From positions 180,001 through 212,000 of the forward strand of contig AP027133.1 of the NCBI GenBank assembly GCA_027925325.1: 32,000 nucleotides of DNA, written 5' to 3'. The translations under genes were made by a program, and so were the position numbers. Below the pieces are notes generated by a model. That model was not told the origin of the DNA. It made no database searches and saw only the letters and a list, made by a program, of their open reading frames with translations. This document shows, one piece after another, positions 14,274 through 27,020 of this stretch. Each line of letters opens with the position of its first letter. Within the stretch, counting starts at the first letter, position 1. The stretch comes from Candidatus Saccharimonadota bacterium (GTDB lineage Bacteria > Bacillota_I > Bacilli_A > Mycoplasmatales > Hepatoplasmataceae).

Positions 14274-15563
14274 ATGAATTTAAATTCACTTGCGATAATT
14301 GGAACACAATGGGGAGATGAAGGGAAAGGTAAAATTACAAATTTTTTAGCAAGAAAAGCTGATTTTGTTGTCCGTTATCAGGGCGGAAATAATGCGGGGC
14401 ATTCAATTATTGTAAATAATAAAAAATTTTCTTTACATTTACTTCCTTCTGGTATTTTTTATAAAAATGTTACTAATGTCTTAGCAAATGGCGTTGTCGT
14501 TGATTTATTTGGTTTAATTGATGAATTAGAAAAATTAAAGCAAAATAATTTTAATGATTTTAAACTTATAATTTCAGATCGTGCCCATGTTGTTTTTCCT
14601 TATCATAAAGAAATCGATGGATTATTAGAAAAAGCAAAGGCAAAGGATTCAATTGGAACGACAAAGCAAGGAATCGGTCCTGCCTATACCGATAAGGCTA
14701 GTCGAATTGGAATAAGAATAATTGATTTGTTTGATGATAAATATTTAAAGCAGAGATTACAAGAAAATATTATTCTTAAAAATGCCTTATTAAAAACTTT
14801 AAAAATTGATTACGAGATAAATTTTACTTCTTTATATGCAAAAATAATCGAAGCACGAGCAAAGATTAAAGATTATGTAAAAGACACTGCAAAAATTGTT
14901 TATGATGCTATAAATCTTAATAAAAGAGTTTTATTTGAAGGAGCACAAGGGGTTTTACTTTGTTTAGATCATGGAACTTATCCTTTTGTGACCTCTTCTT
15001 CTCCTACTGCTTCTTCTATTCCATTAAATGTTGGAATTCCTTGTAATTATATAAACGAAGTATTAGGGATTGTAAAGGCCTATACAACAAGAGTCGGAAA
15101 TGGTGTTTTCCTTACAGAAATTAATGATCAAATTGCAAGCAAAATACGGATAAAAGGGAATGAATTTGGGACAACAACAGGAAGAGCACGTAGAATCGGC
15201 TGGTTTGATGCAACGCTTATAAGATATGCAAAACGGATCAATGGAATTACAAAAATTTCAATTACGTTACTTGATGTTCTTTCAGGATTAGATCAAGTAA
15301 AAATTGCTATTAACTATCGACTTGATGGCAAAATAATCGATAGTATTCCTTTACTTGCAAAAAATCTTGCAAGAGTAGAGATTGAATATCTAACATTAAA
15401 AGGTTGAAAAGAAGATATTTCAAATGTTAAATCATTCGATCAACTTCCACTTAATGCTAAACAATATCTAAAAACGATCGAAAAATATAGCGAAATTAAA
15501 ATTGCTCAGTTTTCTGTTGGTCCTAAAGCTGAACAGACAATCGAAGTTTTAAAAATTTGATAA
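14274..15563 (+). CDS. purA: adenylosuccinate synthetase
   Basis: Motifs QWGDEGKGK, GGNNAGH, GIGPAY and TTGRARR are present. The ORF continues past TGA at 15405 and ends ...KIW then TAA at 15561-15563. Confidence 0.93.
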
Positions 15564-15606: not shown

Positions 15607-16470
15607 ATGAATACAGAACAAAAACCATTAATTGGAGCACATGTCTCATTTAAAAAAGAAGATCAATTATTGGGTTCAATTCGAGATTTTTTAGCAATCG
15701 ATGCCACTTCTGGTGCTTTTTATATTTCTAATTCTCGTGCTTATAAAAAGACAATGATATTAGATCAAAAAAAATTACAAGAAGCAAAAGAATTAGCAAC
15801 TAAAAATAAATTTAATCTTAAAAATATTATCGTTCATGCCCCTTTAGTTGGCAATCTTGCAAATATCGAACAAGATCAAAAAACATATATTTTAACAAGA
15901 GAATCATATTTAGATGACTTAAAGTTAATGGAAAAAATTGGCCTTTCTTTATTTAATTTCCATCCTGGTTCCGCAAAAGATAAAAAATTAGGAATCAAAA
16001 AATGTGCAGAGGGAATTAATTATTTAATCGAGCATACAAAAAATGATCACACGATTGTTTGCATTGAAACAATGATGAAAAAGGGTAATTATATCGGAAG
16101 TAATTTTTCGGAGATTAAAGAAATAATTAATCTTGTAATTAATAAAAAAAGAGTCGGTGTTATTATCGATACATGTCATATTTGAGATGCTGGTTATGAT
16201 TTAAATGATTTTGATAATGTTTTAAAACAATTTGAAATGATAATCGGTCTTAAATATTTAAAGGGATTACATATAAATGATTCTAAAAATCCATTGGGTT
16301 CAAATAAAGATCGTCATGCTAATATCGGTAAGGGTTATATAGGATTAAAAAATCTTAAAAATATCATTTTTCATCCTAAAATAATTAATTTACCAAAAGC
16401 ATTAGAGACTCCATATGGAAAAGACGATTTTAAAAGATGAAAAGAAGAAATTTCACTTTTATTAAATTAA
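15607..16470 (+). CDS. nfo: deoxyribonuclease IV (endonuclease IV)
   Basis: ORFs 15607..16185 and 16237..16440 share a frame and join through TGA codons. Metal-ligand motifs are present: IGAHVS, VHAPL, FHPGS, DTCHIWDAGY and HINDS. Confidence 0.9.
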
Positions 16471-16505
16471 TTAATTTAATAAAATATTTATAAGAAAGAG
16501 AAATA

Positions 16506-17525
16506 ATGAATTTAGAAGATAATAAATTAAATTTTAATAAAGAAAAAGAAATTTATAATGAAGAATTACTGTTCCGTACGGTAGAAAAATATTTTGGCGC
16601 AGATAAATTATATTCATATAATTTAAGTTTTTTGGTAGGAAACGATTTTTTTAAACTGGTAGAAGGATATGATTATGAAGATTTTTATCAAAAATTAAAA
16701 AAAACAAAATCTTATCGTCGAAAAAAAACAACAATTAAAAATTTAGATAAATTATCAAAAAAAATCGGTGCAGAATTTGATATTAATTTTACAGAAGGAT
16801 TATTACAATTAAATAAAAAGAAAAAATATTTTGATTTCACAGATAAATCTCAGTTAATAAAAGAGCTTTATTATCCTTTTTTAAAGATTGTAAATAATTA
16901 TTTGGATAATAGTTTTCAAAGTGAAGTTAATATATTAACAATTGATTTTAGTAATTTTTTTGAGAATTTATTTACACCGAGCCGTTTTGAATTAAAAAAA
17001 TATAATTTTAATCAAGTGAATGAAGAAGAAGCAAATAAGAAAATAAATTTATATAAGATCTTTGGTGATATTGAAAATCCAAAAGAGATAAAATTACCAA
17101 AAGAATTTAAGAAAAATTATCTTCCCTTTTTTGCTTTTGATCAGTTGCGGATTTTTACAAATAAAATTAATCAGAAAAACTCAGTTCTTGTTGTCTTTGG
17201 TTATGATTTTTCCGATCAATATTTAAATAATTTAATTTTAAATTTAAAAAATAATCAAGCGATTAAAGTTTTGCTTTTGGTTGATAATAAAGATAAAAAT
17301 AAAGAGATAATTTATCAATTTTTACAATATCAAAAGATCTTTTTAATTAAATTCATCGATTATCAAGATAAGGATTATCTAATTAATTTAGAGAATATTT
17401 TATATTCAAAAATAGAATTGATGTTTAAAGCTTTAACAGATTTAAATCAAAAAAAAGATCAAGAGAAAATTAAGGGGAAGAAAAAAAATCTAACAAGAAA
17501 GGGAAAAAATAAAAAAAATGAATAA
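16506..17525 (+). CDS. SIR2-like (SIR2_2 / DHS-like fold) protein with substituted catalytic signature and a Lys-rich C-terminal tail
   Basis: Four segments occur in the order and spacing of SIR2_2 motifs. FLVGNDF (aa 42-48) corresponds to fhGAGxS. ILTIDFSNFFE (aa 143-153) corresponds to iiTTNYDnllE. LYKIFGDIENPKEIKLPKEF (aa 182-201) corresponds to KlHGs...p.ivlT..dY. VLVVFGYDFSD (aa 227-237) corresponds to lvflGYSl.D. The ORF is intact and its stop overlaps the next gene's ATG. The assignment was made by eye only. Confidence 0.45.
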   Translation: MNLEDNKLNFNKEKEIYNEELLFRTVEKYFGADKLYSYNLSFLVGNDFFKLVEGYDYEDFYQKLKKTKSYRRKKTTIKNLDKLSKKIGAEFDINFTEGLLQLNKKKKYFDFTDKSQLIKELYYPFLKIVNNYLDNSFQSEVNILTIDFSNFFENLFTPSRFELKKYNFNQVNEEEANKKINLYKIFGDIENPKEIKLPKEFKKNYLPFFAFDQLRIFTNKINQKNSVLVVFGYDFSDQYLNNLILNLKNNQAIKVLLLVDNKDKNKEIIYQFLQYQKIFLIKFIDYQDKDYLINLENILYSKIELMFKALTDLNQKKDQEKIKGKKKNLTRKGKNKKNE

Positions 17526-19431
17526 TTTTGATAATTATATTTTTGGCGTAATTGATTTTGCAAAAGGAAATGAAATTGTTGTAAAAAGCAATAAAGAAAA
17601 AATTTTACAGCGAAATTATATAATCGGTCTTGATCAACTTTTTCTTGCTCCTCGAATTGATCGATTCATCAAATTTTTATTCAATAATCAAATTTTTATT
17701 TATAAAATATTTCAAATTGAAGAAAACGAAAAAAATATCTTTTATCGTTGTTACTATGTTGGTAGATTAATAAATAATAAAGTTATTGAAAATGAAACTT
17801 TTATTGCAAAATTAAATGAAAAGGTTTCACTTATTTCAATTAAAGAATTAAAGCAATTTGATCAAAATTTTGCAAATGATCGATTAAGGATATTAAATAT
17901 CGCAAAAACCTTAGATACAGAAAATGAAATAGATTTAAATTTAAATTTCTTTTCATCTAATAATATTTTATTAGGAAAAAAAGGGAGTGGGAAAAGTAAT
18001 ACGATTAAGAATTTATATCTAGCTTTTTTTAATCAATACTTAAAAAGTTTTAATCAAAAATTTCATAAATTTATTTTCTTTGATTTAAAAAATCAATATC
18101 ATGCTTTTTTTGAAAATAATTTGAATTCTTCATTATTGCCACAATTAATTAAGGTTGATCTAAAAGAGCGTTTAGAACAAAGTGATGTTGCTTTTTTTAA
18201 TTTTAAAAAATTAAGCAAAAAAGAACTTGCCTTTATTTTTAATCTTTCAACAGAGGAAGAAAAAAAATTGCTTTATAATTTTTTAATTTGAATCGAAAAT
18301 TTAAAGCAAATTTCATTTATAAAAATTATCAATGAGGCAATTTTAATTGATCGTAGTTTTGAGATTGTTAAGGTCTTTTTATTAAAACTTTTAAAAATTT
18401 CAACAAAAGAACAAAATCTTAAATTTAATCATTATTTTATTATTTTGCAAGAAATTTTAAATAAATTATCTTTAGATAATAATTTATTTATCTTAAATGA
18501 TGCCTATGATCAATATTCTAATTTTATCGCTAAGGAAAAAAATAAAAATATAAATTACAAGAAAAAGGGTAATAATTTATATTTTGAAAAAGATCATTTT
18601 AATCTCTTTTTAGATTTAATTAAAGGAAAATATTTGAATTTAGAAAATGATAAGAATTTATTAGAACGATTTAATAATTTCATAAATTATGACTTTAATT
18701 CTTTATTAATTTTATTTCAATTGCAAACAATTATTGATAATGACAAATTAGATAATTTTATTCTTAATGAATTTATCGATAAATTAACATTAAAAAAAGA
18801 TAATGATAATTATTTAATTATCAAACATTTTGCTTTAAATTTAAAAGGGTATGAAAAACAAAATGACATTTTATCATCATTTGAAAAAAACAATTTAATT
18901 ATTTTAACATTTGATTATCTTTCAATAAAGGTAAAAAAGAGATTAATTTATCTTTTACTAAAATTATTAACGATTGAAAATTGCTTAGATTTACCAGAAG
19001 AAAAAAGATATTTAAATATTATTCTCGATGATTTTGATCACTTTTTTGAATTGTCACTTATTACAAAAAATCTTGATTTAATTTTATTTGAAAAATTGAT
19101 TTTACAAAAAGCAATTTATAAAACTTTTTTTACGATTGCTGTCGAAAATGTAAATTTATTACGCGAAAAAATCTTTGCTGATTTTGATAATTTCTTAATT
19201 CATCAAATTTTAGATCGGGAAGAATTAGAATTAACAACACATTATTTAAAAAATGTAAATGAACATCAATTAATGCAAACTTTTAAATTTAAAAATACGG
19301 AAGCAATTTTTTATGGAAAATCATTTAAAAGATTATATCCGGTTGAACTTCTAGATTTTTCTGAGAAAAAAGTAATCAATAATGAATCATCTAAGGTTAT
19401 TTTTGATATTTTAAATCAAAAAAGTCAGTAA
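17518..19431 (+). CDS. HerA/FtsK-like P-loop ATPase (637 aa)
   Basis: ORFs 17518..18291 and 18445..19431 share a frame and join through one TGA at 18289. The N-terminus is HAS-barrel-like (YIFGVIDFAKGNEIVVKS). Walker A is LLGKKGSGKSNTIKNL (17974-17997). The Walker B-like segment is YLNIILDDFDHFF (from 19021). The C-terminal pattern FTIAVENVN...NFLIHQILDREE...TEAIFYGKSF..YPVELLDF follows the HerA layout. Confidence 0.65.
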
Positions 19432-19463
19432 AATTATTTTTGTTGTATAATAAAATTAGATTA

Positions 19464-19501
19464 GAAAATGTCACTTTTTTAAAGTGTCATTTTCTTTTTT
19501 T
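19464..19501 (+). terminator. intrinsic terminator after the HerA-like gene
   Basis: GAAAATGTCACT (19464-19475) pairs with AGTGTCATTTTC (19483-19494). This gives a 12-bp stem with one T:T mismatch and a 7-nt loop, followed by a T7 run. Confidence 0.6.
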
Positions 19502-19528
19502 AATCGAAGTCAAAGTTTTTATATTACG

Positions 19529-21220
19529 ATGAAAAAAAGCAGTATTTATATTTTATTTTTATCTTTATTTTTTCTATTTCTTGTTCCGTTTGTTATTTTA
19601 TTTTCAATAGATAATAAGCAAAATAAATTAACTGCTGAAGTTAATGCTAATTTTATTGACCAACATATTGAAAAAAGTTATCAATTTGATGAAGGTGATG
19701 CAGCTGCTGTTACTAGAGATCAAGATGGCTATGATCATCTTTATATGTGGGGAGATAATAGTCACTATCAATTAGGTTTAAATTATCAAACCGCTTATTT
19801 TCCTGATTCAAGCGATTTAAATCTTACAGCAAAAAATTATTATTATTATCCGCAGGAGGTAGCAATTACAAAAGATAACAAAGGGATGATTGATGATTTA
19901 AAATCAACAAAATTTAATACAATTGTCTCTTTTATTGATCAAGATGGTAATTATCATCTTTATATATATGGATCAAATGTAAATGGACTATTAACAAAAG
20001 ATCAATTATATTTAAATTCATCAGATCCAATTATTATTGATATTCCAACTAATTTAAAAATTGAAGATCTTGCGCTTACCGATGATAATGTTTATCTTTT
20101 ATTAAAAGAAAAAAGTGGAAAGAAGCAATATCTTTATAGTTGGGGATTAAATATTAATGGTCAATTGGGATTAGGATTTAATGATAATTTTATTCATAAA
20201 ACTCCTAATGTATCAAAATATATAAATGGTTTAAGTACAGATGATTATGAAATAGAACAAATCTATGCCCAAAATGATGCCTTATATTTAGTTACGAAAA
20301 ATAAAAATGAAGATGATGATTTTGAAACAATTTATACTTTAGGATCAAATCACGATGAACAATTAGCGATTACTGGGTTAGATTATGATGATAATATTTT
20401 AATTCCAACTGAAATTCCTTATTTTGAAGAAATTAAAGCTAATAATATCTATCTTGATGGCAATAATCATTATGGAATTTATGCGCAATATCAATTATTA
20501 AATCAGACCTATTTGGTTAGTTGAGGTAATAATAGAAATAATCAATTGGTTAACATTAATCAAAATATAATCAATCAACCAACAGGCGTCTTTGCTGATC
20601 AAATTGGTGATAGTGGTGAACCTATTTATGATCCGCAAGAAAAAGATTTATTATTTTCTAATTATGGTTATGAACAATCTTTTTTAATTTATCAATATCA
20701 AGATCAATATCAACTTTATGGTTGAGGATTAAATAATCACTATAGTTTAGGAATATCTGATAATCAGATTCATAATACTGAACCTATTGCTATCAAGAGT
20801 ATCAATAATCAAAATTATCAAGTAAAAGGATTATCAACCGGTAGTCATAGCAGTAGTCTTATAATAGAAGATCAAGATAACAATCAAAGTTTATACACAT
20901 GAGGATATAATCAAACCGGACAATTAGGAAATGGAGAAGAAGCATCATTTACTGCAGAACAAAATACCACTTTTTATCTTTCTTTACAAACTTACATTGT
21001 AAAAGAAAGTAGTAATAATTATTATAAATTGCCTCTTGCTATTTTTATTGTAATAGTAATTTTATTATTATTAGTTCTTATCACTTTATATATCAGCGTT
21101 AAGAGATATAAAGTCCTTGAGGCTAAAAAAAAGCAAACAGGACAACAACAAAATGAAGTTTTGAATCAAGAATTAACAGCAGAATTAACAACACAAAATT
21201 TAGATTTGAATGTAGATTAA
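19529..21220 (+). CDS. membrane-anchored RCC1-like 7-blade beta-propeller protein
   Basis: ATG at 19529 gives MKKSSIYILFLSLFFLFLVPFVILFS, a signal peptide or signal anchor. There are seven [LY]Y.WG.N..GQLG-type blades: HLYMWGDNSHYQLG, HLYIYGSNVNGLL, YLYSWGLNINGQLGLG, IYTLGSNHDEQLA, LVSWGNNRNNQLV, LYGWGLNNHYSLG and LYTWGYNQTGQLGNG. Three blade Trp residues are TGA-encoded. A C-terminal TM segment LPLAIFIVIVILLLLVLITLYI is followed by a short charged tail. Confidence 0.75.
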
Positions 21221-22320
21221 TTTTTAAAACTTATATTTTCATTTTTAGCTTTAATTAAATCGATTTTTTGTTTATCTTTTGCTTCAAATAAAAGATAAAT
21301 TTTTCCTTTTAAGTCGTTAACACGATTTGTTCTTCCGATTCGATGTTTAAAATAATTTAAATCAATCGGTAAATCATAATTTATGATGTGACTAACATGA
21401 TTAAAATCAATTCCTCTTGCATATAAATCAGTTGTAATGAGATAAATAATTTTTTCGTTTTTTGCTTCATTAAAAACTTGTTTTCTTTTTCTTGGATTTA
21501 AATCAGAATTAAAATATCTAATATCTTTAAAATTATTTTTATTTAAGAAATTATAGATTTTTTTAACTTCTTCATTTTTATTAGCAAAAATGATCACAAA
21601 ATAAGGATTTATTTCATTACTTTCTAACAATTCTTTTAATACTTGTAATTTATCGTTCTCGATAACTTTAATTAATTTGATATCAACTTTTTTTGTTAAT
21701 TTATTATCTAAATCAATTAATTTAGGATTAATTTTAAATGTTTTTTTAATTTTATTTTGTAAATCACCAGAAAGTGTAGCTGAAAAAAAGGCGTAGGTAA
21801 TTTTGTTTTTTAATCTTAAATTTTTAACAAATTTTGCAATTAAATCTAATTGTTTAAAATGATAAATCATATCGATTTCATCTACTATTAAATATTTTAA
21901 TTCTCTATAGTCAATTGGTGATTTATTTTGCAAAGCAAAAATTTTTTCAATCGTTGTAACAATTATTTTGCTTTTTTTGTGATATTTCCTTTTTTCTCAT
22001 TCATAATCAAGATTTTTGGTAATTGCAAAAAAATCAAAATTAAAATATTTATTTAGCTTTTGTAATTGATTTTTTAATTGTTGTACAAGTTCATTGGTTG
22101 GAACGATAATAATTGCTTCAACATTATTTTTACTTTTATCTAAATTATTGATAATCGGTAGAAGATACGCTAATGTTTTTCCTGTTCCGGTCGGTGATTG
22201 ACAAAAAAGATCATCATTTTTTAGCAAAATCGGAAATACTTCTTTTTGTACTTGTAACAAATCAGTAAATTTTTCTGCCTTTAAATAATTATTTAAATTT
22301 TCTTTCAATTCTAGTTTCAT
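21217..22320 (-). CDS. DEAD-box ATP-dependent RNA helicase
   Basis: Minus-strand ORFs 21997..22320 and 21217..21933 share a frame and join through one TGA (21997-21999 on +). Motifs SPTGTGKT (I), IVDEID (II variant), SAT (III), TDLYARGID (V) and HRIGRTNR (VI) are present. Confidence 0.88.
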
Positions 22321-25798: not shown

Positions 25799-26212
25799 AT
25801 GAATAAAAATAGAAAATTAAATTTTAATCTAGAGTATCAGAAATTTTTTAAAACTCCCAATTGGGAGTTAATAGAAATTTTATATTCAAGAAATAAATAT
25901 AGCATTTTAAGAGAAGATCATATAGCAATTAAAATTAATACTAGAAAAAGAAAATTAGAATTTTTACAAATTTATTTATATTTACAAATTGTAAAAAATG
26001 GCAATATTAATCCAATTGAGATTATTGAAGTATATGATAATTTTTCCGATTATATTGATTCGATTTTATCTAAAAATATTGATGAAAAACATAAAAATGA
26101 TTTTGAAATAAAAATAATTAATTTAATTTTATGCTTAAGAAATATTAATACAAAAATTTCTTCTATATTGTATTCTTATATATTTTCATTTGAAAAAACA
26201 TTAATTATTTAA
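25799..26212 (+). CDS. hypothetical protein (137 aa), first ORF of the accessory island
   Basis: The ORF is intact with an ATG start, and TATAAT lies at 25779-25784. I see no recognisable motif. Its 3' end overlaps the open frame of the next ORF. Confidence 0.4.
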   Translation: MNKNRKLNFNLEYQKFFKTPNWELIEILYSRNKYSILREDHIAIKINTRKRKLEFLQIYLYLQIVKNGNINPIEIIEVYDNFSDYIDSILSKNIDEKHKNDFEIKIINLILCLRNINTKISSILYSYIFSFEKTLII

Positions 26213-26889
26213 TAAATCATAAATTTATAAGTAATAATTTAAATATTTTAGAAATTATTTCTCATAATAAAAAGATTGAAATTTCAAAAAATAAAATTAA
26301 AAATTTACAAGAAAAAGATTATATAATTACGGAAAAAAATCTTTTTGTTAAAAATGCAAAAATTATGGAAGAATTATATTTTAAAGAAAAGATATCAATA
26401 TTAAAATATCTGCAAAATGAAAAATTTTTAACTTTACAAGATTTGATAAAAAGAAAATTTATTAGTTCAGGGAAAATAAAGGAAAGAGAAAATTTTTTTA
26501 GAAAAAAAGGTTTTAGTGAAGAGGGAATAAAAAATGGAATATGAAATTATTTTATAGAAAGATTACAAAAAACTAGTGATTTGAGAAATAAAATATCTCA
26601 TCTTGATAATTTAATTATTAAAAAAAATGATTCCGAGGATTTATTAAATTATTTTTATGGTCAGTTCGATCTCTTAAGAAATGATTATACAATAGAAATT
26701 TTTTATAAGATTAAATTAATTTTTTTGAAAAATAATTTAATATCTAGAAATGATATTTTAAGAAATCATTATGAAGATTTCTTTGCTTTTAAAATGAAAA
26801 AGAACAAAAATAATAAAAATGAACAATTCTTAAAAGAAAGAATTGTTCAAGATAAACATACAAATTTGTCTTTAAATTCACACAACTAA
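26149..26889 (+). CDS. HEPN-motif (RNxxxH) protein, Abi-like candidate; start codon unresolved, possibly frameshifted from the upstream ORF
   Basis: Read with code 4, this frame is open from 26149 to TAA at 26887-26889 through two TGA codons. The track shows only 26581..26889. R-N-K-I-S-H lies at 26584-26601, in the context WNYFIERLQKTSDLRNKISHLDNL. The first in-frame ATG is at 26365. The region upstream of that ATG reads like winged-helix segments (LNILEIISHNKKIEISKNKIKNLQEKDYII). Confidence 0.4.
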
Positions 26890-26940
26890 ATGTGCTACAG
26901 TAAAGGATTTATGTTCCTTCACACAACTAAATGTGCTACA
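26877..26940. repeat. perfect 23-nt direct repeat x2 (TTCACACAACTAAATGTGCTACA) separated by an 18-nt unique spacer
   Basis: Copy 1 is 26877-26899 and copy 2 is 26918-26940, identical at 23/23 positions. The spacer GTAAAGGATTTATGTTCC is 26900-26917, giving a 41-nt period. Copy 1 contains the stop codon of the HEPN-motif ORF. Confidence 0.9.
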
Positions 26941-27020
26941 TATCTATTATATATAAATTTTATTTTAAAAATAAAATATTTAAAAAATTAGATAAAATTA
27001 TCATAATTTTACTATTAACT

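What the first reader, a model, noticed from the sequence alone, without database searches (positions are those of the whole stretch)
16506..19431. Translationally coupled SIR2-like + HerA-like ATPase gene pair (candidate SIR2-HerA-type defence module) in a reduced Mollicutes-type genome
Two intact ORFs of 339 aa and 637 aa overlap by 8 nt: ATG at 17518 lies inside the last codons of the first gene. They sit between nfo and a hairpin terminator at 19464-19501. The second protein has the HerA layout. Its N-terminus is HAS-barrel-like (YIFGVIDFAKGNEIVVKS). Walker A is GKKGSGKS. The Walker B-like segment is IILDDFDH, where DE-A-H is expected. The C-terminal part reads ...NFLIHQILDREE...TEAIFYGKSF. 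The first protein carries the four ordered motifs of the SIR2_2 family. Gene order, sizes and coupling match the known two-gene SIR2+HerA anti-phage architecture. However, the Walker A to Walker B distance is about 345 aa, filled with N/K/L/I-rich sequence and no motif I recognise, and the SIR2 signature residues are substituted. If this is a defence system, it is a highly diverged variant in a lineage with very few described systems. If it is not, it is an uncharacterised HerA-family machine retained in a minimal genome.
Basis: partly seen in the sequence, partly recalled or inferred. Interest (0 to 1): 0.85.

Follow-up and report, generated by a model that had tools for sequence, protein, structure and literature searches.

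The report
Catalytically degenerate SIR2–HerA pair in Hepatoplasma
Two overlapping genes in an isopod-gut mollicute descend from the SIR2–HerA anti-phage system, but the first has lost the residues needed to destroy NAD+ and the second most of those needed to burn ATP, yet both are conserved as tightly as housekeeping genes, so a former suicide-type defence module seems to have been kept for another job.

Summary
Under genetic code 4 the window (Candidatus Hepatoplasma scabrum) encodes a 339-aa and a 637-aa protein that overlap by 8 nt, between nfo and a hairpin terminator.

Both are true homologues of the two SIR2–HerA components. The first passes the Pfam SIR2_2 threshold and matches SIR2 partners of canonical HerA (hhalign 95–97%). 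The second matches canonical SIR2-associated HerA (hhalign 98.4%, 451 columns). The long Walker A to Walker B spacer is the helix bundle normal for this HerA subfamily.

The chemistry of the known system is gone. The SIR2-like protein has no histidine in any of five lineages, the catalytic Asn is Asp, and the NDGF motif is deleted. The HerA-like protein keeps its P-loop but has DEAH→DDFD and lacks both conserved arginines and the sensor Gln.

Even so, the pair sits at the same place in all five lineages, with dN/dS of 0.13–0.29, like purB, nfo and gmk. The H. vulgare lineage carries a solo HerA-like gene elsewhere.

Most likely this is a vertically fixed, NADase-dead derivative of SIR2–HerA and not a working NAD+-depletion system. 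Its present function is unknown. I rate it a new variant of a known kind, of moderate interest.

The parts
16506..17525 (+). SIR2-like gene (339 aa; HPPSJP_1880): SIR2_2 fold-family protein without the catalytic residues
   Evidence: ORF under table 4. Pfam PF13289 E = 1.3e-9, 38.7 bits against a cutoff of 24.5, residues 143-277. PADLOC SIR2 models at about 1e-8. hhalign to 32 or 76 canonical SIR2 partners gives 94.8% local and 97.3% global. Zero His, Cys and Trp. dN/dS 0.13-0.21.
16629..16652 (+). Degenerate Rossmann Gly-rich loop FLVGNDFF (aa 42-49), where canonical has FLiGSGxS
   Evidence: hmmsearch and hhalign alignments to the canonical SIR2 profile. The second Gly is Asp47 and the Ser is Phe49.
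16935..16952 (+). LTIDFS (aa 144-149), equivalent of canonical FTTNxD: the catalytic Asn is Asp147 and the Asp is Ser149
   Evidence: The Asn and Asp are invariant in canonical partners and correspond to N226 of SaSir2 and N163/D165 of Paenibacillus SIR2.
17055..17069 (+). KIFGD (aa 184-188), equivalent of canonical KxHGS: the catalytic His is Phe186 (or, in the other register, the His strand is deleted)
   Evidence: hhalign global alignment. HMMER prefers the alternative register, with NPKEIK aligned to NPTKxK. Either way no His exists. KxHG is present in 76 of 76 canonical partners.
17199..17222 (+). GYDFSDQY (aa 232-239), equivalent of canonical GFSFxDEH: the best-conserved SIR2 segment, with His replaced by Tyr239
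17518..17525 (+). 8-nt overlap ATGAATAA (start codon of the HerA-like gene inside the end of the SIR2-like gene)
   Evidence: Conserved in L002, L004 and L089.
17518..19431 (+). HerA-like gene (637 aa; HPPSJP_1890): beta-barrel, split RecA-like domain and helical insertion, with degenerate ATPase motifs
   Evidence: ORF under table 4. PADLOC HerA PDLC04105 at 7.6e-6 and PDLC04097 at 2.4e-4 over the full length. hhalign to canonical HerA 98.4%, E = 5.2e-15, 451 columns. hhalign to the solo Hepatoplasma-type HerA 97.7%, 578 columns. dN/dS 0.16-0.29.
17974..17997 (+). Walker A / P-loop GKKGSGKS (aa 153-160), retained
19018..19041 (+). Walker B-like IILDDFDH (aa 501-508), where canonical has IIIDEAHN: Asp504 is kept, the catalytic Glu is Asp505 and the His is Asp507
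   Evidence: This is a high-confidence hhalign block, and the residues are invariant in all five orthologues.
19102..19164 (+). QKAIYKTFFTIAVENVNLLRE (aa 529-549), equivalent of canonical KEGRKFGxFLTIxSQRPSDIS: both conserved Arg and the sensor Gln are replaced (A532, E543, N544)
   Evidence: The motifs are present in all solved HerA structures.
19463..19502 (+). Intrinsic-terminator-like hairpin (14 bp with one bulge) followed by U7, ending the transcription unit
   Evidence: -18.2 kcal/mol, z = -3.1. The generic scanner misses it because it has few G-C pairs.

Best explanation
The two genes are a vertically inherited, highly diverged descendant of a two-gene SIR2-HerA module that entered an ancestor of the Hepatoplasma scabrum/crinochetorum clade.

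Shown:
- Both proteins are homologous to the two components, in the canonical order and with the canonical translational coupling.
- The SIR2-like protein lacks the sirtuin-type NADase site: no histidine at all, Asn replaced by Asp, the NDGF motif deleted, and a degenerate Gly-rich loop.
- The HerA-like protein keeps the P-loop and the Walker B Asp, but has lost the Walker B Glu, both conserved arginines and the sensor Gln.
- Both genes are under purifying selection as strong as their housekeeping neighbours, at a fixed chromosomal position.

Inferred:
- The proteins probably still assemble into a HerA-like ring capped by the SIR2-fold partner.
- The ring probably binds nucleotide but hydrolyses it poorly or not at all, so it would act as a nucleotide-dependent switch or scaffold.
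- The complex no longer kills the cell by NAD+ depletion.
- I therefore read it as a disarmed, domesticated defence module retained for a host function that does not need the NADase. The most plausible role is on nucleic acid: the partner has a conserved Lys-rich C-terminal tail, HerA ancestry is DNA-directed, and the pair probably shares a transcription unit with nfo.
For: Homology:
- Pfam SIR2_2 is above threshold, and PADLOC SIR2 and HerA models hit.
- hhalign of B against canonical HerA gives 98.4%; A against canonical SIR2 partners gives 94.8% local and 97.3% global.
- The canonical sets are anchored to solved SIR2-HerA structures 8yhx, 8j4u, 8w9l and 8wiv.

Architecture:
- 77 of 78 canonical HerA loci have an abutting upstream 324-475 aa ORF, and 32 of 32 tested are SIR2_2.

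Loss of chemistry:
- There are 0 His in five lineages. KxHG is present in 76 of 76 canonical partners.
- N135 is replaced by D147 and D137 by S149.
- Only 10 of 49 near-invariant SIR2 positions and 21 of 101 HerA positions are kept. Losses include E→D505, R→A532, Q→E543 and R→N544.
- Mutating this His abolishes NADase, and catalytic mutants of either protein abolish defence (PMC11514289; PMC11472057).

Constraint:
- dN/dS is 0.13-0.21 for the SIR2-like gene and 0.16-0.29 for the HerA-like gene. Compare purB 0.10-0.19, nfo 0.15-0.19, gmk 0.17-0.21 and the DEAD helicase 0.20-0.28.
- Synteny purB-purA-nfo-SIR2-HerA-RCC1-DEAD is identical in all five lineages.
- The substituted motif blocks are themselves invariant among orthologues.
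- Neighbouring enzymes keep their canonical motifs: purA GDEGKGK, gmk GPSGVGK, and the DEAD helicase PTGTGKT, SAT and HRIGRTNR. Compositional drift alone therefore does not explain the losses.
- There are no flanking repeats or structured RNAs that would mark a mobile island.
- A related solo HerA-like gene is retained without SIR2 in the H. vulgare lineage.
Against: - No structure could be obtained. The AF2 models have pLDDT 34 and 36, so complex formation and pocket geometry are inferred only.
- The N-terminal half of the SIR2-like protein aligns weakly, and two registers exist for the His region.
- Asp505 could act as a weak catalytic base, and invariant Arg549, five residues after the lost Arg, could be a displaced arginine finger. 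ATPase activity is therefore not excluded.
- A defence role through a non-NADase output is not excluded either. A HerA nickase is essential in type III systems (PMC13434337), and the S. aureus complex shows no ATPase and uses ATP as a ligand.
- dS of 0.5-1.0 is near saturation, so dN/dS values are approximate.
- Co-transcription with nfo is inferred only from 35-nt spacing and the absence of a terminator.
- Hepatoplasma does keep CRISPR-Cas9 and R-M systems, so phage pressure exists.
Confidence: 0.45

Rival explanations
1. Still an anti-phage system, but with a non-NADase output. The HerA-like ring senses infection or ATP level through its intact P-loop, and the complex acts on DNA (nicking or nuclease). 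The SIR2-fold protein serves only as a regulatory cap.
For: - The pair descends from a defence system.
- In E. coli type III Sir2-HerA, a HerA nickase (D218) is required for defence independently of the NADase.
- SaSir2-HerA showed no ATPase and is regulated by ATP binding.
- The P-loop, D189 and D504 are retained and invariant.
- The SIR2-like protein has a conserved Lys-rich tail.
- Hepatoplasma keeps other defences.
Against: - In every characterised system the SIR2 catalytic residues are also required for defence.
- The pair shows housekeeping-like constraint and fixed synteny rather than the turnover typical of defence genes.
- The nickase residue could not be mapped onto this protein.
Confidence: 0.27
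2. A fully functional canonical SIR2-HerA abortive-infection system. Its catalytic residues are merely obscured by extreme divergence and AT bias, so it still depletes NAD+ on infection.
For: - Gene order, sizes and coupling are canonical.
- Pfam SIR2_2 is above threshold.
- Both genes are intact and under selection.
Against: - There is no His anywhere in the SIR2-like protein in five lineages.
- Asn is replaced by Asp, the NDGF motif is deleted, and about 55-60 aa are missing between the TTNxD and GFSF equivalents, where canonical spacing is rigid (59 aa in 31 of 32 partners, 60 in one).
- In HerA the Glu, both Arg and the Gln are lost within high-confidence alignment blocks.
- Neighbouring enzymes under the same compositional pressure keep their motifs.
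Confidence: 0.07
3. A non-functional relic: two genes that are decaying but have not yet been interrupted.
For: - Catalytic motifs are lost.
- GC content is lowest in the neighbourhood, 0.18-0.22.
- B is extremely isolated in sequence space, with 11 hits among 1.84 billion representatives.
Against: - The ORFs of 339 and 637 codons are intact in five lineages separated by dS of about 0.6-1.0, with dN/dS 0.13-0.29, equal to housekeeping neighbours.
- The 8-nt overlap is conserved.
- The substituted motif regions are invariant.
- In a genome of about 600 kb with a deletion bias, 2.9 kb of dead sequence would not persist.
Confidence: 0.05
4. Not related to SIR2-HerA at all: a chance resemblance of low-complexity, AT-biased proteins that happen to carry a generic P-loop.
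For: - Single-sequence searches against PDB and Pfam give nothing significant for B.
- Both proteins are rich in K, N, L, I and F.
Against: - The profile-profile matches are collinear over 451-578 columns at 97.7-99.3%.
- Six of the nine non-self hits in the unbiased 1.84-billion-protein search are bona fide PDLC04097-type HerA.
- Independent evidence for the partner comes from Pfam SIR2_2.
- The gene order matches that of 77 of 78 canonical loci.
Confidence: 0.03

Closest known systems
SIR2-HerA (Nezha) two-gene anti-phage systems; PADLOC HerA model PDLC04097 type; solved examples from Paenibacillus sp. 453MF (8w9l/8wiv), S. aureus (8yhx/8yho) and E. coli (8j4u)
   Same: - The SIR2_2-family gene lies immediately upstream of, and overlaps, a HerA-family gene of about 600-640 aa.
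- HerA has the N-terminal beta-barrel, a P-loop, and a long helical insertion splitting the RecA-like domain.
- The SIR2 C-terminal Rossmann half (LLRIxxN...GFSFxD) is conserved.
   Different: - The SIR2 Asn/His dyad, the Asp, and the NDGF motif are absent, and about 55-60 aa are deleted.
- HerA Walker B DEAH is DDFD, and KEGRKFG and SQRPSD are lost.
- Only 21 of 101 (HerA) and 10 of 49 (SIR2) near-invariant positions are retained.
- The pair has a fixed chromosomal position and housekeeping-like constraint, rather than accessory distribution.
- The host is a mollicute with a genome of about 600 kb.
S. aureus Sir2-HerA (PMC11514289)
   Same: HerA acts as an ATP-binding regulator without detectable ATPase or helicase activity. 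This is a precedent for a HerA ring that binds but does not turn over ATP.
   Different: SaSir2 keeps N226 and H287 and is an active NADase. SaHerA keeps the canonical Walker B and arginine motifs.
E. coli type III Sir2-HerA (PMC13434337)
   Same: It shows that a HerA in these systems can have a non-ATPase, non-NADase output (a nickase) that is essential for function.
   Different: It is still an active NADase system. The nickase residue D218 could not be mapped onto the Hepatoplasma protein.
Archaeal and bacterial HerA-NurA DNA end-resection machinery
   Same: A HerA-family ring ATPase encoded next to a partner gene. In this window it sits beside a DNA-repair gene (nfo).
   Different: There is no NurA, the partner is a SIR2_2-fold protein, and the HerA subfamily is the defence-associated one with the extended helix bundle.
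Solo HerA-like genes of the Ca. Hepatoplasma vulgare lineage (HPAVJP_1640 and relatives)
   Same: Same length, full-length homology (97.7%, 24% identity), and the same losses: Walker B Glu, arginines and sensor Gln.
   Different: They have no SIR2 partner and sit at a different locus (M42 peptidase - HerA-like - ppa). Constraint is somewhat weaker (dN/dS 0.33).

Membership tests
SIR2-HerA anti-phage system | Two adjacent co-oriented genes, SIR2 upstream of HerA, tightly coupled | tested here: met
   The genes overlap by 8 nt. The same arrangement occurs in 77 of 78 canonical loci.
SIR2-HerA anti-phage system | Upstream protein belongs to the SIR2_2 (PF13289) family | tested here: met
   38.7 bits against a gathering score of 24.5, covering profile positions 3-137 of 141. 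hhalign to canonical partners gives 94.8% local and 97.3% global.
SIR2-HerA anti-phage system | SIR2 catalytic Asn/His dyad (SaSir2 N226/H287; Paenibacillus N163/D165/H212) | tested here: not met
   Asn is Asp147 and Asp is Ser149. There is no His in the whole protein in five lineages. KxHG is present in 76 of 76 canonical partners.
SIR2-HerA anti-phage system | Downstream protein is homologous to SIR2-associated HerA (beta-barrel, split RecA-like domain, helix bundle) | tested here: met
   hhalign 98.4%, E = 5.2e-15, 451 columns. PADLOC PDLC04097 matches over the full length. The N-terminal barrel is supported transitively through the solo type.
SIR2-HerA anti-phage system | HerA reaches the Pfam DUF87 (PF01935) threshold | tested here: not met
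   There is no DUF87 hit, and the best Pfam hits have E > 0.1. Six of the nine distant relatives found by the profile search do hit DUF87.
SIR2-HerA anti-phage system | HerA Walker A lysine (K173 in Paenibacillus; required for defence) | tested here: met
   GKKGSGKS, with K159 invariant.
SIR2-HerA anti-phage system | HerA Walker B Asp-Glu, conserved arginines (KEGRKFG, SQRP) and sensor Gln | tested here: not met
   DEAH is DDFD, R is A532, Q is E543 and R is N544. All are 100% conserved in 78 canonical HerA and present in solved structures.
SIR2-HerA anti-phage system | Protects against phage with NAD+ depletion | not testable with these tools
   This needs biochemistry or heterologous expression, and the organism is uncultured.
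SIR2-HerA anti-phage system | Accessory, patchy distribution (typical of defence systems, though not strictly defining) | tested here: not met
   The locus is identical in all five lineages found, and dN/dS equals that of housekeeping neighbours.
HerA-NurA end-resection system | NurA nuclease encoded next to HerA | tested here: not met
   The neighbours are a SIR2_2 protein, nfo and an RCC1-like protein. There is no NurA hit.
DUF4297-HerA defence system | DUF4297 partner protein | tested here: not met
   The partner hits only SIR2 models in Pfam and PADLOC.
FtsK/SpoIIIE translocases | Significant match to PF01580 with the gamma domain or membrane anchor | tested here: not met
   PF01580 scores E = 0.22, limited to the P-loop.

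The most novel reading that the evidence does not exclude
A suicide-type immune module (SIR2-HerA) was disarmed and domesticated in a minimal-genome symbiont. It would now be a NAD+-independent ring-plus-cap complex that binds ATP but does not hydrolyse it, and has become part of the core, vertically inherited cell machinery of Hepatoplasma, for example in DNA maintenance. The ring alone would suffice in the sister H. vulgare lineage. This would be a documented case of a bacterial abortive-infection system being turned into a pair of pseudoenzymes with a housekeeping role.
Probability: 0.3. Interest if true: 0.75.

Novelty: new variant of a known kind. Interest (0 to 1): 0.55.

Why it matters
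SIR2-HerA is a well-studied NAD+-depleting abortive-infection system. In every characterised member the SIR2 Asn/His site is essential, and mutating HerA's Walker A lysine also abolishes defence.

Here both partners have lost core catalytic residues. Yet they are kept intact, coupled and as constrained as purine-metabolism and repair genes, in a genome of about 600 kb where useless DNA is rapidly lost.

If confirmed, this would show that defence modules can survive as non-catalytic complexes with a different role. It would provide a natural separation-of-function variant for asking what the SIR2-HerA scaffold does apart from NAD+ hydrolysis. It would also add a defence-derived element to Hepatoplasmataceae, whose genome description lists only R-M and CRISPR-Cas9.

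It is also a practical caution: automated defence-system annotation by domain content alone would call this pair an active SIR2-HerA system.

Tried and rejected
- AlphaFold2 on both proteins, using the only available shallow alignments, gave unusable models (pLDDT 34 and 36). I therefore ran no Foldseek comparison, because the matches would be meaningless.
- Single-sequence and shallow-profile searches of PDB sequences gave nothing significant for B and only E = 0.03 for A.
- NCBIfam gave only a sub-threshold SIR2_antiphage hit.
- Two JGI metagenome scans, one with each Hepatoplasma profile, found no relatives.
- The sigma-70 promoter scan found fewer sites than shuffled controls, so it is uninformative. 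The terminator scanner missed the AT-rich hairpin, which I confirmed by folding instead.
- Rfam found no families in the window.
- The repeat search found only AT-rich chance matches and no island boundaries.
- hmmalign in glocal mode could not place the N-terminal half of the SIR2-like protein. I used local hmmsearch and global hhalign instead.
- I rejected the idea that the long Walker A to Walker B spacer is anomalous.
- I rejected a pseudogene status.
- I rejected a HerA-NurA or DUF4297-HerA assignment.
- A literature search for SIR2 defence in Mollicutes returned nothing.
Full report
**Origin and observation.** The 637-aa product is identical to HPPSJP_1890 and the 339-aa product to HPPSJP_1880 of the Candidatus Hepatoplasma scabrum MAG. 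This is a mollicute with a genome of about 606 kb from the isopod Porcellio scaber (PMC10928387). The genome reads TGA as Trp, so the table-11 ORF list breaks nfo, purA and the second gene. With table 4 there are intact ORFs at 16506-17525 and 17518-19431 that overlap by 8 nt. Upstream lie purB, purA and nfo, all on the + strand and separated by 24-43 nt. Downstream, a hairpin at 19463-19495 followed by U7 folds at -18.2 kcal/mol, z = -3.1.

**Is the first protein SIR2-like?** Yes.
- Pfam SIR2_2 (PF13289) scores 38.7 bits against a gathering score of 24.5, covering residues 143-277 and profile positions 3-137 of 141.
- Eleven PADLOC SIR2 models hit, the best at 7.8e-9.
- To compare it with true partners of HerA, I collected 80 loci encoding canonical HerA from GTDB genomes. 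In 77 of 78 usable loci, a 324-475 aa ORF ends within -143 to +19 nt of the HerA start. All 32 that I aligned are SIR2_2.
- That profile matches the solved SIR2 proteins of the S. aureus (8yhx), E. coli (8j4u) and Paenibacillus (8w9l) SIR2-HerA systems at 1e-19 to 1e-28.
- hhalign of the Hepatoplasma alignment against it gives 94.8% (E = 5e-8) locally, over the C-terminal LLRIxxN...GFSFxDEH block. In global mode it gives 97.3% with a collinear full-length mapping.

**Is the second protein HerA-like?** Yes, but it is extremely diverged.
- Pfam finds nothing significant. PADLOC HerA models hit weakly: PDLC04105 at 7.6e-6, and PDLC04097 at 2.4e-4 over residues 82-634 against model positions 97-612.
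- An exhaustive profile search of 1.84 billion representative proteins returned only 11 hits at E ≤ 1e-3. Six are bona fide HerA, with DUF87 in Pfam and PDLC04097 at up to 1e-189. Three are diverged proteins with no Pfam hit.
- hhalign against five canonical HerA gives 98.4%, E = 5.2e-15, over 451 columns (96-610 against 109-589).
- The canonical profile matches solved SIR2-associated HerA structures (8wiv at 9e-57, also 8yho and 8j4u_M).
Canonical members have about 300 aa there. In the Paenibacillus structure this segment is the alpha-helix bundle (aa 228-396) inserted in the RecA-like domain (PMC11472057).

**What has been lost in the SIR2-like protein.** In canonical partners R120, T133, N135, D137, D154-G-F156, K193, H195-G-S197, W200, P277, K281, G313-F-S315, D318, H320 and N331-P332 are invariant.
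- In the Hepatoplasma protein, FTTNxD is LTIDFS (Asn→Asp147, Asp→Ser149). GSGxS is GNDFF, the NDGF motif falls in a deletion, and KxHGS is KIFGD (His→Phe186) in the hhalign register.
- HMMER prefers a register in which IENPKEIK matches IVNPTKxK and the His strand is deleted.
- The ambiguity does not matter, because the protein contains no histidine at all in any of five lineages. At the local His frequency of 1.37%, the probability of that is about 0.009.
- Canonical spacing is rigid. TTNxD to KxHGS is 59 aa in 31 of 32 partners (60 in one), and TTNxD to GFSF is at least 141 aa. Here the distance is 87 aa, so about 55-60 aa are missing.
- Only 10 of 49 near-invariant positions survive, all in the C-terminal half.
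- The literature describes the Asn/His dyad as completely conserved, and mutating the His abolishes NADase (PMC11514289). Mutations of the catalytic residues of either protein abolish defence (PMC11472057).

**What has been lost in the HerA-like protein.** Of 101 positions that are at least 95% conserved in 78 canonical HerA, 21 are retained.
- Kept: the P-loop (G153, G156-S-G-K-S160, T162), D189, Y194, the Walker B Asp504, N558 and H562.
- Replaced: Walker B Glu→Asp505, Ala→Phe506 and His→Asp507 (DEAH→DDFD). The Arg of KEGRKFG is Ala532, and the Gln-Arg-Pro of SQRPSD is Glu543-Asn544-Val545.
- These substitutions lie in high-confidence, ungapped hhalign blocks and are invariant among the five orthologues. 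They are selected states, not noise.
- An invariant Arg549, five residues downstream of the lost Arg, could conceivably act as a displaced finger. I therefore call the ATPase impaired rather than certainly dead.
- Neighbouring enzymes under the same compositional pressure keep their signatures: purA GDEGKGK, gmk GPSGVGK, and the DEAD-box helicase PTGTGKT, SAT and HRIGRTNR.

**Evolutionary behaviour.**
- The pair occupies the same position (pheT - hypothetical - purB - purA - nfo - SIR2 - HerA - RCC1-like - DEAD - rsmD - coaD - gmk - PP2C) in H. crinochetorum Av (CP006932), in one ENA assembly and in three Logan assemblies. Together with the window these represent five lineages, all with the 8-nt overlap.
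- Nei-Gojobori dN/dS is 0.13-0.21 for the SIR2-like gene (76-82% identity) and 0.16-0.29 for the HerA-like gene (67-74% identity).
- For comparison: purB 0.10-0.19, nfo 0.15-0.19, gmk 0.17-0.21, DEAD 0.20-0.28 and the RCC1-like gene 0.33-0.53. dS is 0.5-1.0, close to saturation, so the comparison between genes is more trustworthy than the absolute values.
- No repeats or structured RNAs mark a mobile island.
- The family is not a Mollicutes core gene; outside Hepatoplasma-type genomes it has no close relatives.
- The Hepatoplasmataceae genome paper lists only R-M and CRISPR-Cas9 as defences and mentions neither SIR2 nor HerA.

**A solo relative.** One of the diverged hits is HPAVJP_1640 of Ca. 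Hepatoplasma vulgare.
- With two relatives of 71% and 45% identity, it lies between an M42 peptidase gene and ppa, with no SIR2 gene nearby.
- It is homologous over its full length to the paired protein (97.7%, 578 columns, 24% identity) and to canonical HerA (99.3%).
- It has the same losses (Walker B D-S or D-A, no QR) and a dN/dS of 0.33.
- A fourth type (P0010) also appears solo.
- Database searches found no close orthologue of the paired proteins in H. vulgare, nor of the solo protein in H. scabrum or H. crinochetorum. I could not inspect those genomes directly.

**Interpretation.**
- Shown: descent from a SIR2-HerA module; absence of the sirtuin-type NADase site; degeneration of the ATP-hydrolysis motifs with a preserved P-loop; strong purifying selection; and fixed synteny.
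- Inferred: the proteins still form a ring-plus-cap complex; the ring binds but barely hydrolyses ATP; and the module no longer works by NAD+ depletion.
- I favour (about 0.45) a disarmed, domesticated complex with a host function, possibly on DNA.
- A non-NADase defence role (about 0.27) is the main rival. A HerA nickase is essential in type III systems, and S. aureus HerA works without detectable ATPase.
- A canonical NADase system (0.07), a decaying relic (0.05) and chance resemblance (0.03) are unlikely.

**Novelty and score.** SIR2-HerA is known, and H. crinochetorum orthologues already carry the names 'SIR2 family protein' and 'Helicase HerA' in public databases. What appears new is the combination: a catalytic-site-deficient pair, housekeeping-like constraint in a minimal genome, and a solo HerA-like gene in a sister lineage. 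I found no description of this. I rate it a new variant of a known kind, with interest 0.55.

Noticed in passing
window 19484/19529-21220 (+): The downstream gene encodes an RCC1/WD40_RLD-repeat protein with hydrophobic N- and C-terminal segments. It is the fastest-evolving gene of the neighbourhood (54-61% identity, dN/dS 0.33-0.53). Its 36-nt direct repeats at 19718, 19937 and 20870 reflect the blade repeats. The GTG at 19484 lies inside the terminator hairpin, so the ATG at 19529 is the likelier start. A 973-aa paralogue lies further downstream in H. crinochetorum (L002 17605+). It may be a surface or host-interaction protein family.
   Followed up: partly
L085 8001-9914 (Ca. H. vulgare AP027131); L087 8001-9917; L086 8001-10016; L088 342-2216: Solo HerA-like genes without a SIR2 partner sit at a different locus (rsgA - P-type ATPase - M42 peptidase - HerA-like - ppa; in L088 proS is downstream). 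They show the same loss of the Walker B Glu and the arginines, and a dN/dS of 0.33. It is unresolved whether they are relocated orthologues of the paired gene or a separate acquisition.
   Followed up: partly
window 15607-16470, 14274-15563, 17518-19431: The genome uses genetic code 4 (TGA = Trp). Table-11 ORF calling splits nfo, purA and the HerA-like gene into fragments.
   Followed up: yes
window 17446-17525 (aa 314-339 of the SIR2-like protein): A Lys-rich C-terminal tail (QKKDQEKIKGKKKNLTRKGKNKKNE) keeps its basic character, and the KGK.K..E ending is conserved across lineages. It has no counterpart in canonical SIR2 partners and may bind nucleic acid.
   Followed up: no
window 19162-19164 (Arg549 of the HerA-like protein): An invariant Arg lies five residues downstream of the position of the lost canonical SQRP arginine. 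It could be a displaced arginine finger, but this cannot be judged without a structure.
   Followed up: no
window 26001-27000; ORFs 25799-26212 and 26365-26889 (+): This is the lowest-GC kilobase of the window (GC 0.167). It overlaps the end of one small unannotated ORF and contains another.
   Followed up: no
window 21217-22320 (-): The DEAD-box helicase has DEID instead of DEAD but keeps all other helicase motifs. It served as an internal control showing that AT drift does not erase catalytic motifs in neighbouring genes.
   Followed up: partly
window 16001-19000: The SIR2-like and HerA-like genes have the lowest GC of their neighbourhood (0.18-0.22, against about 0.23-0.29 for flanking genes).
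   Followed up: no
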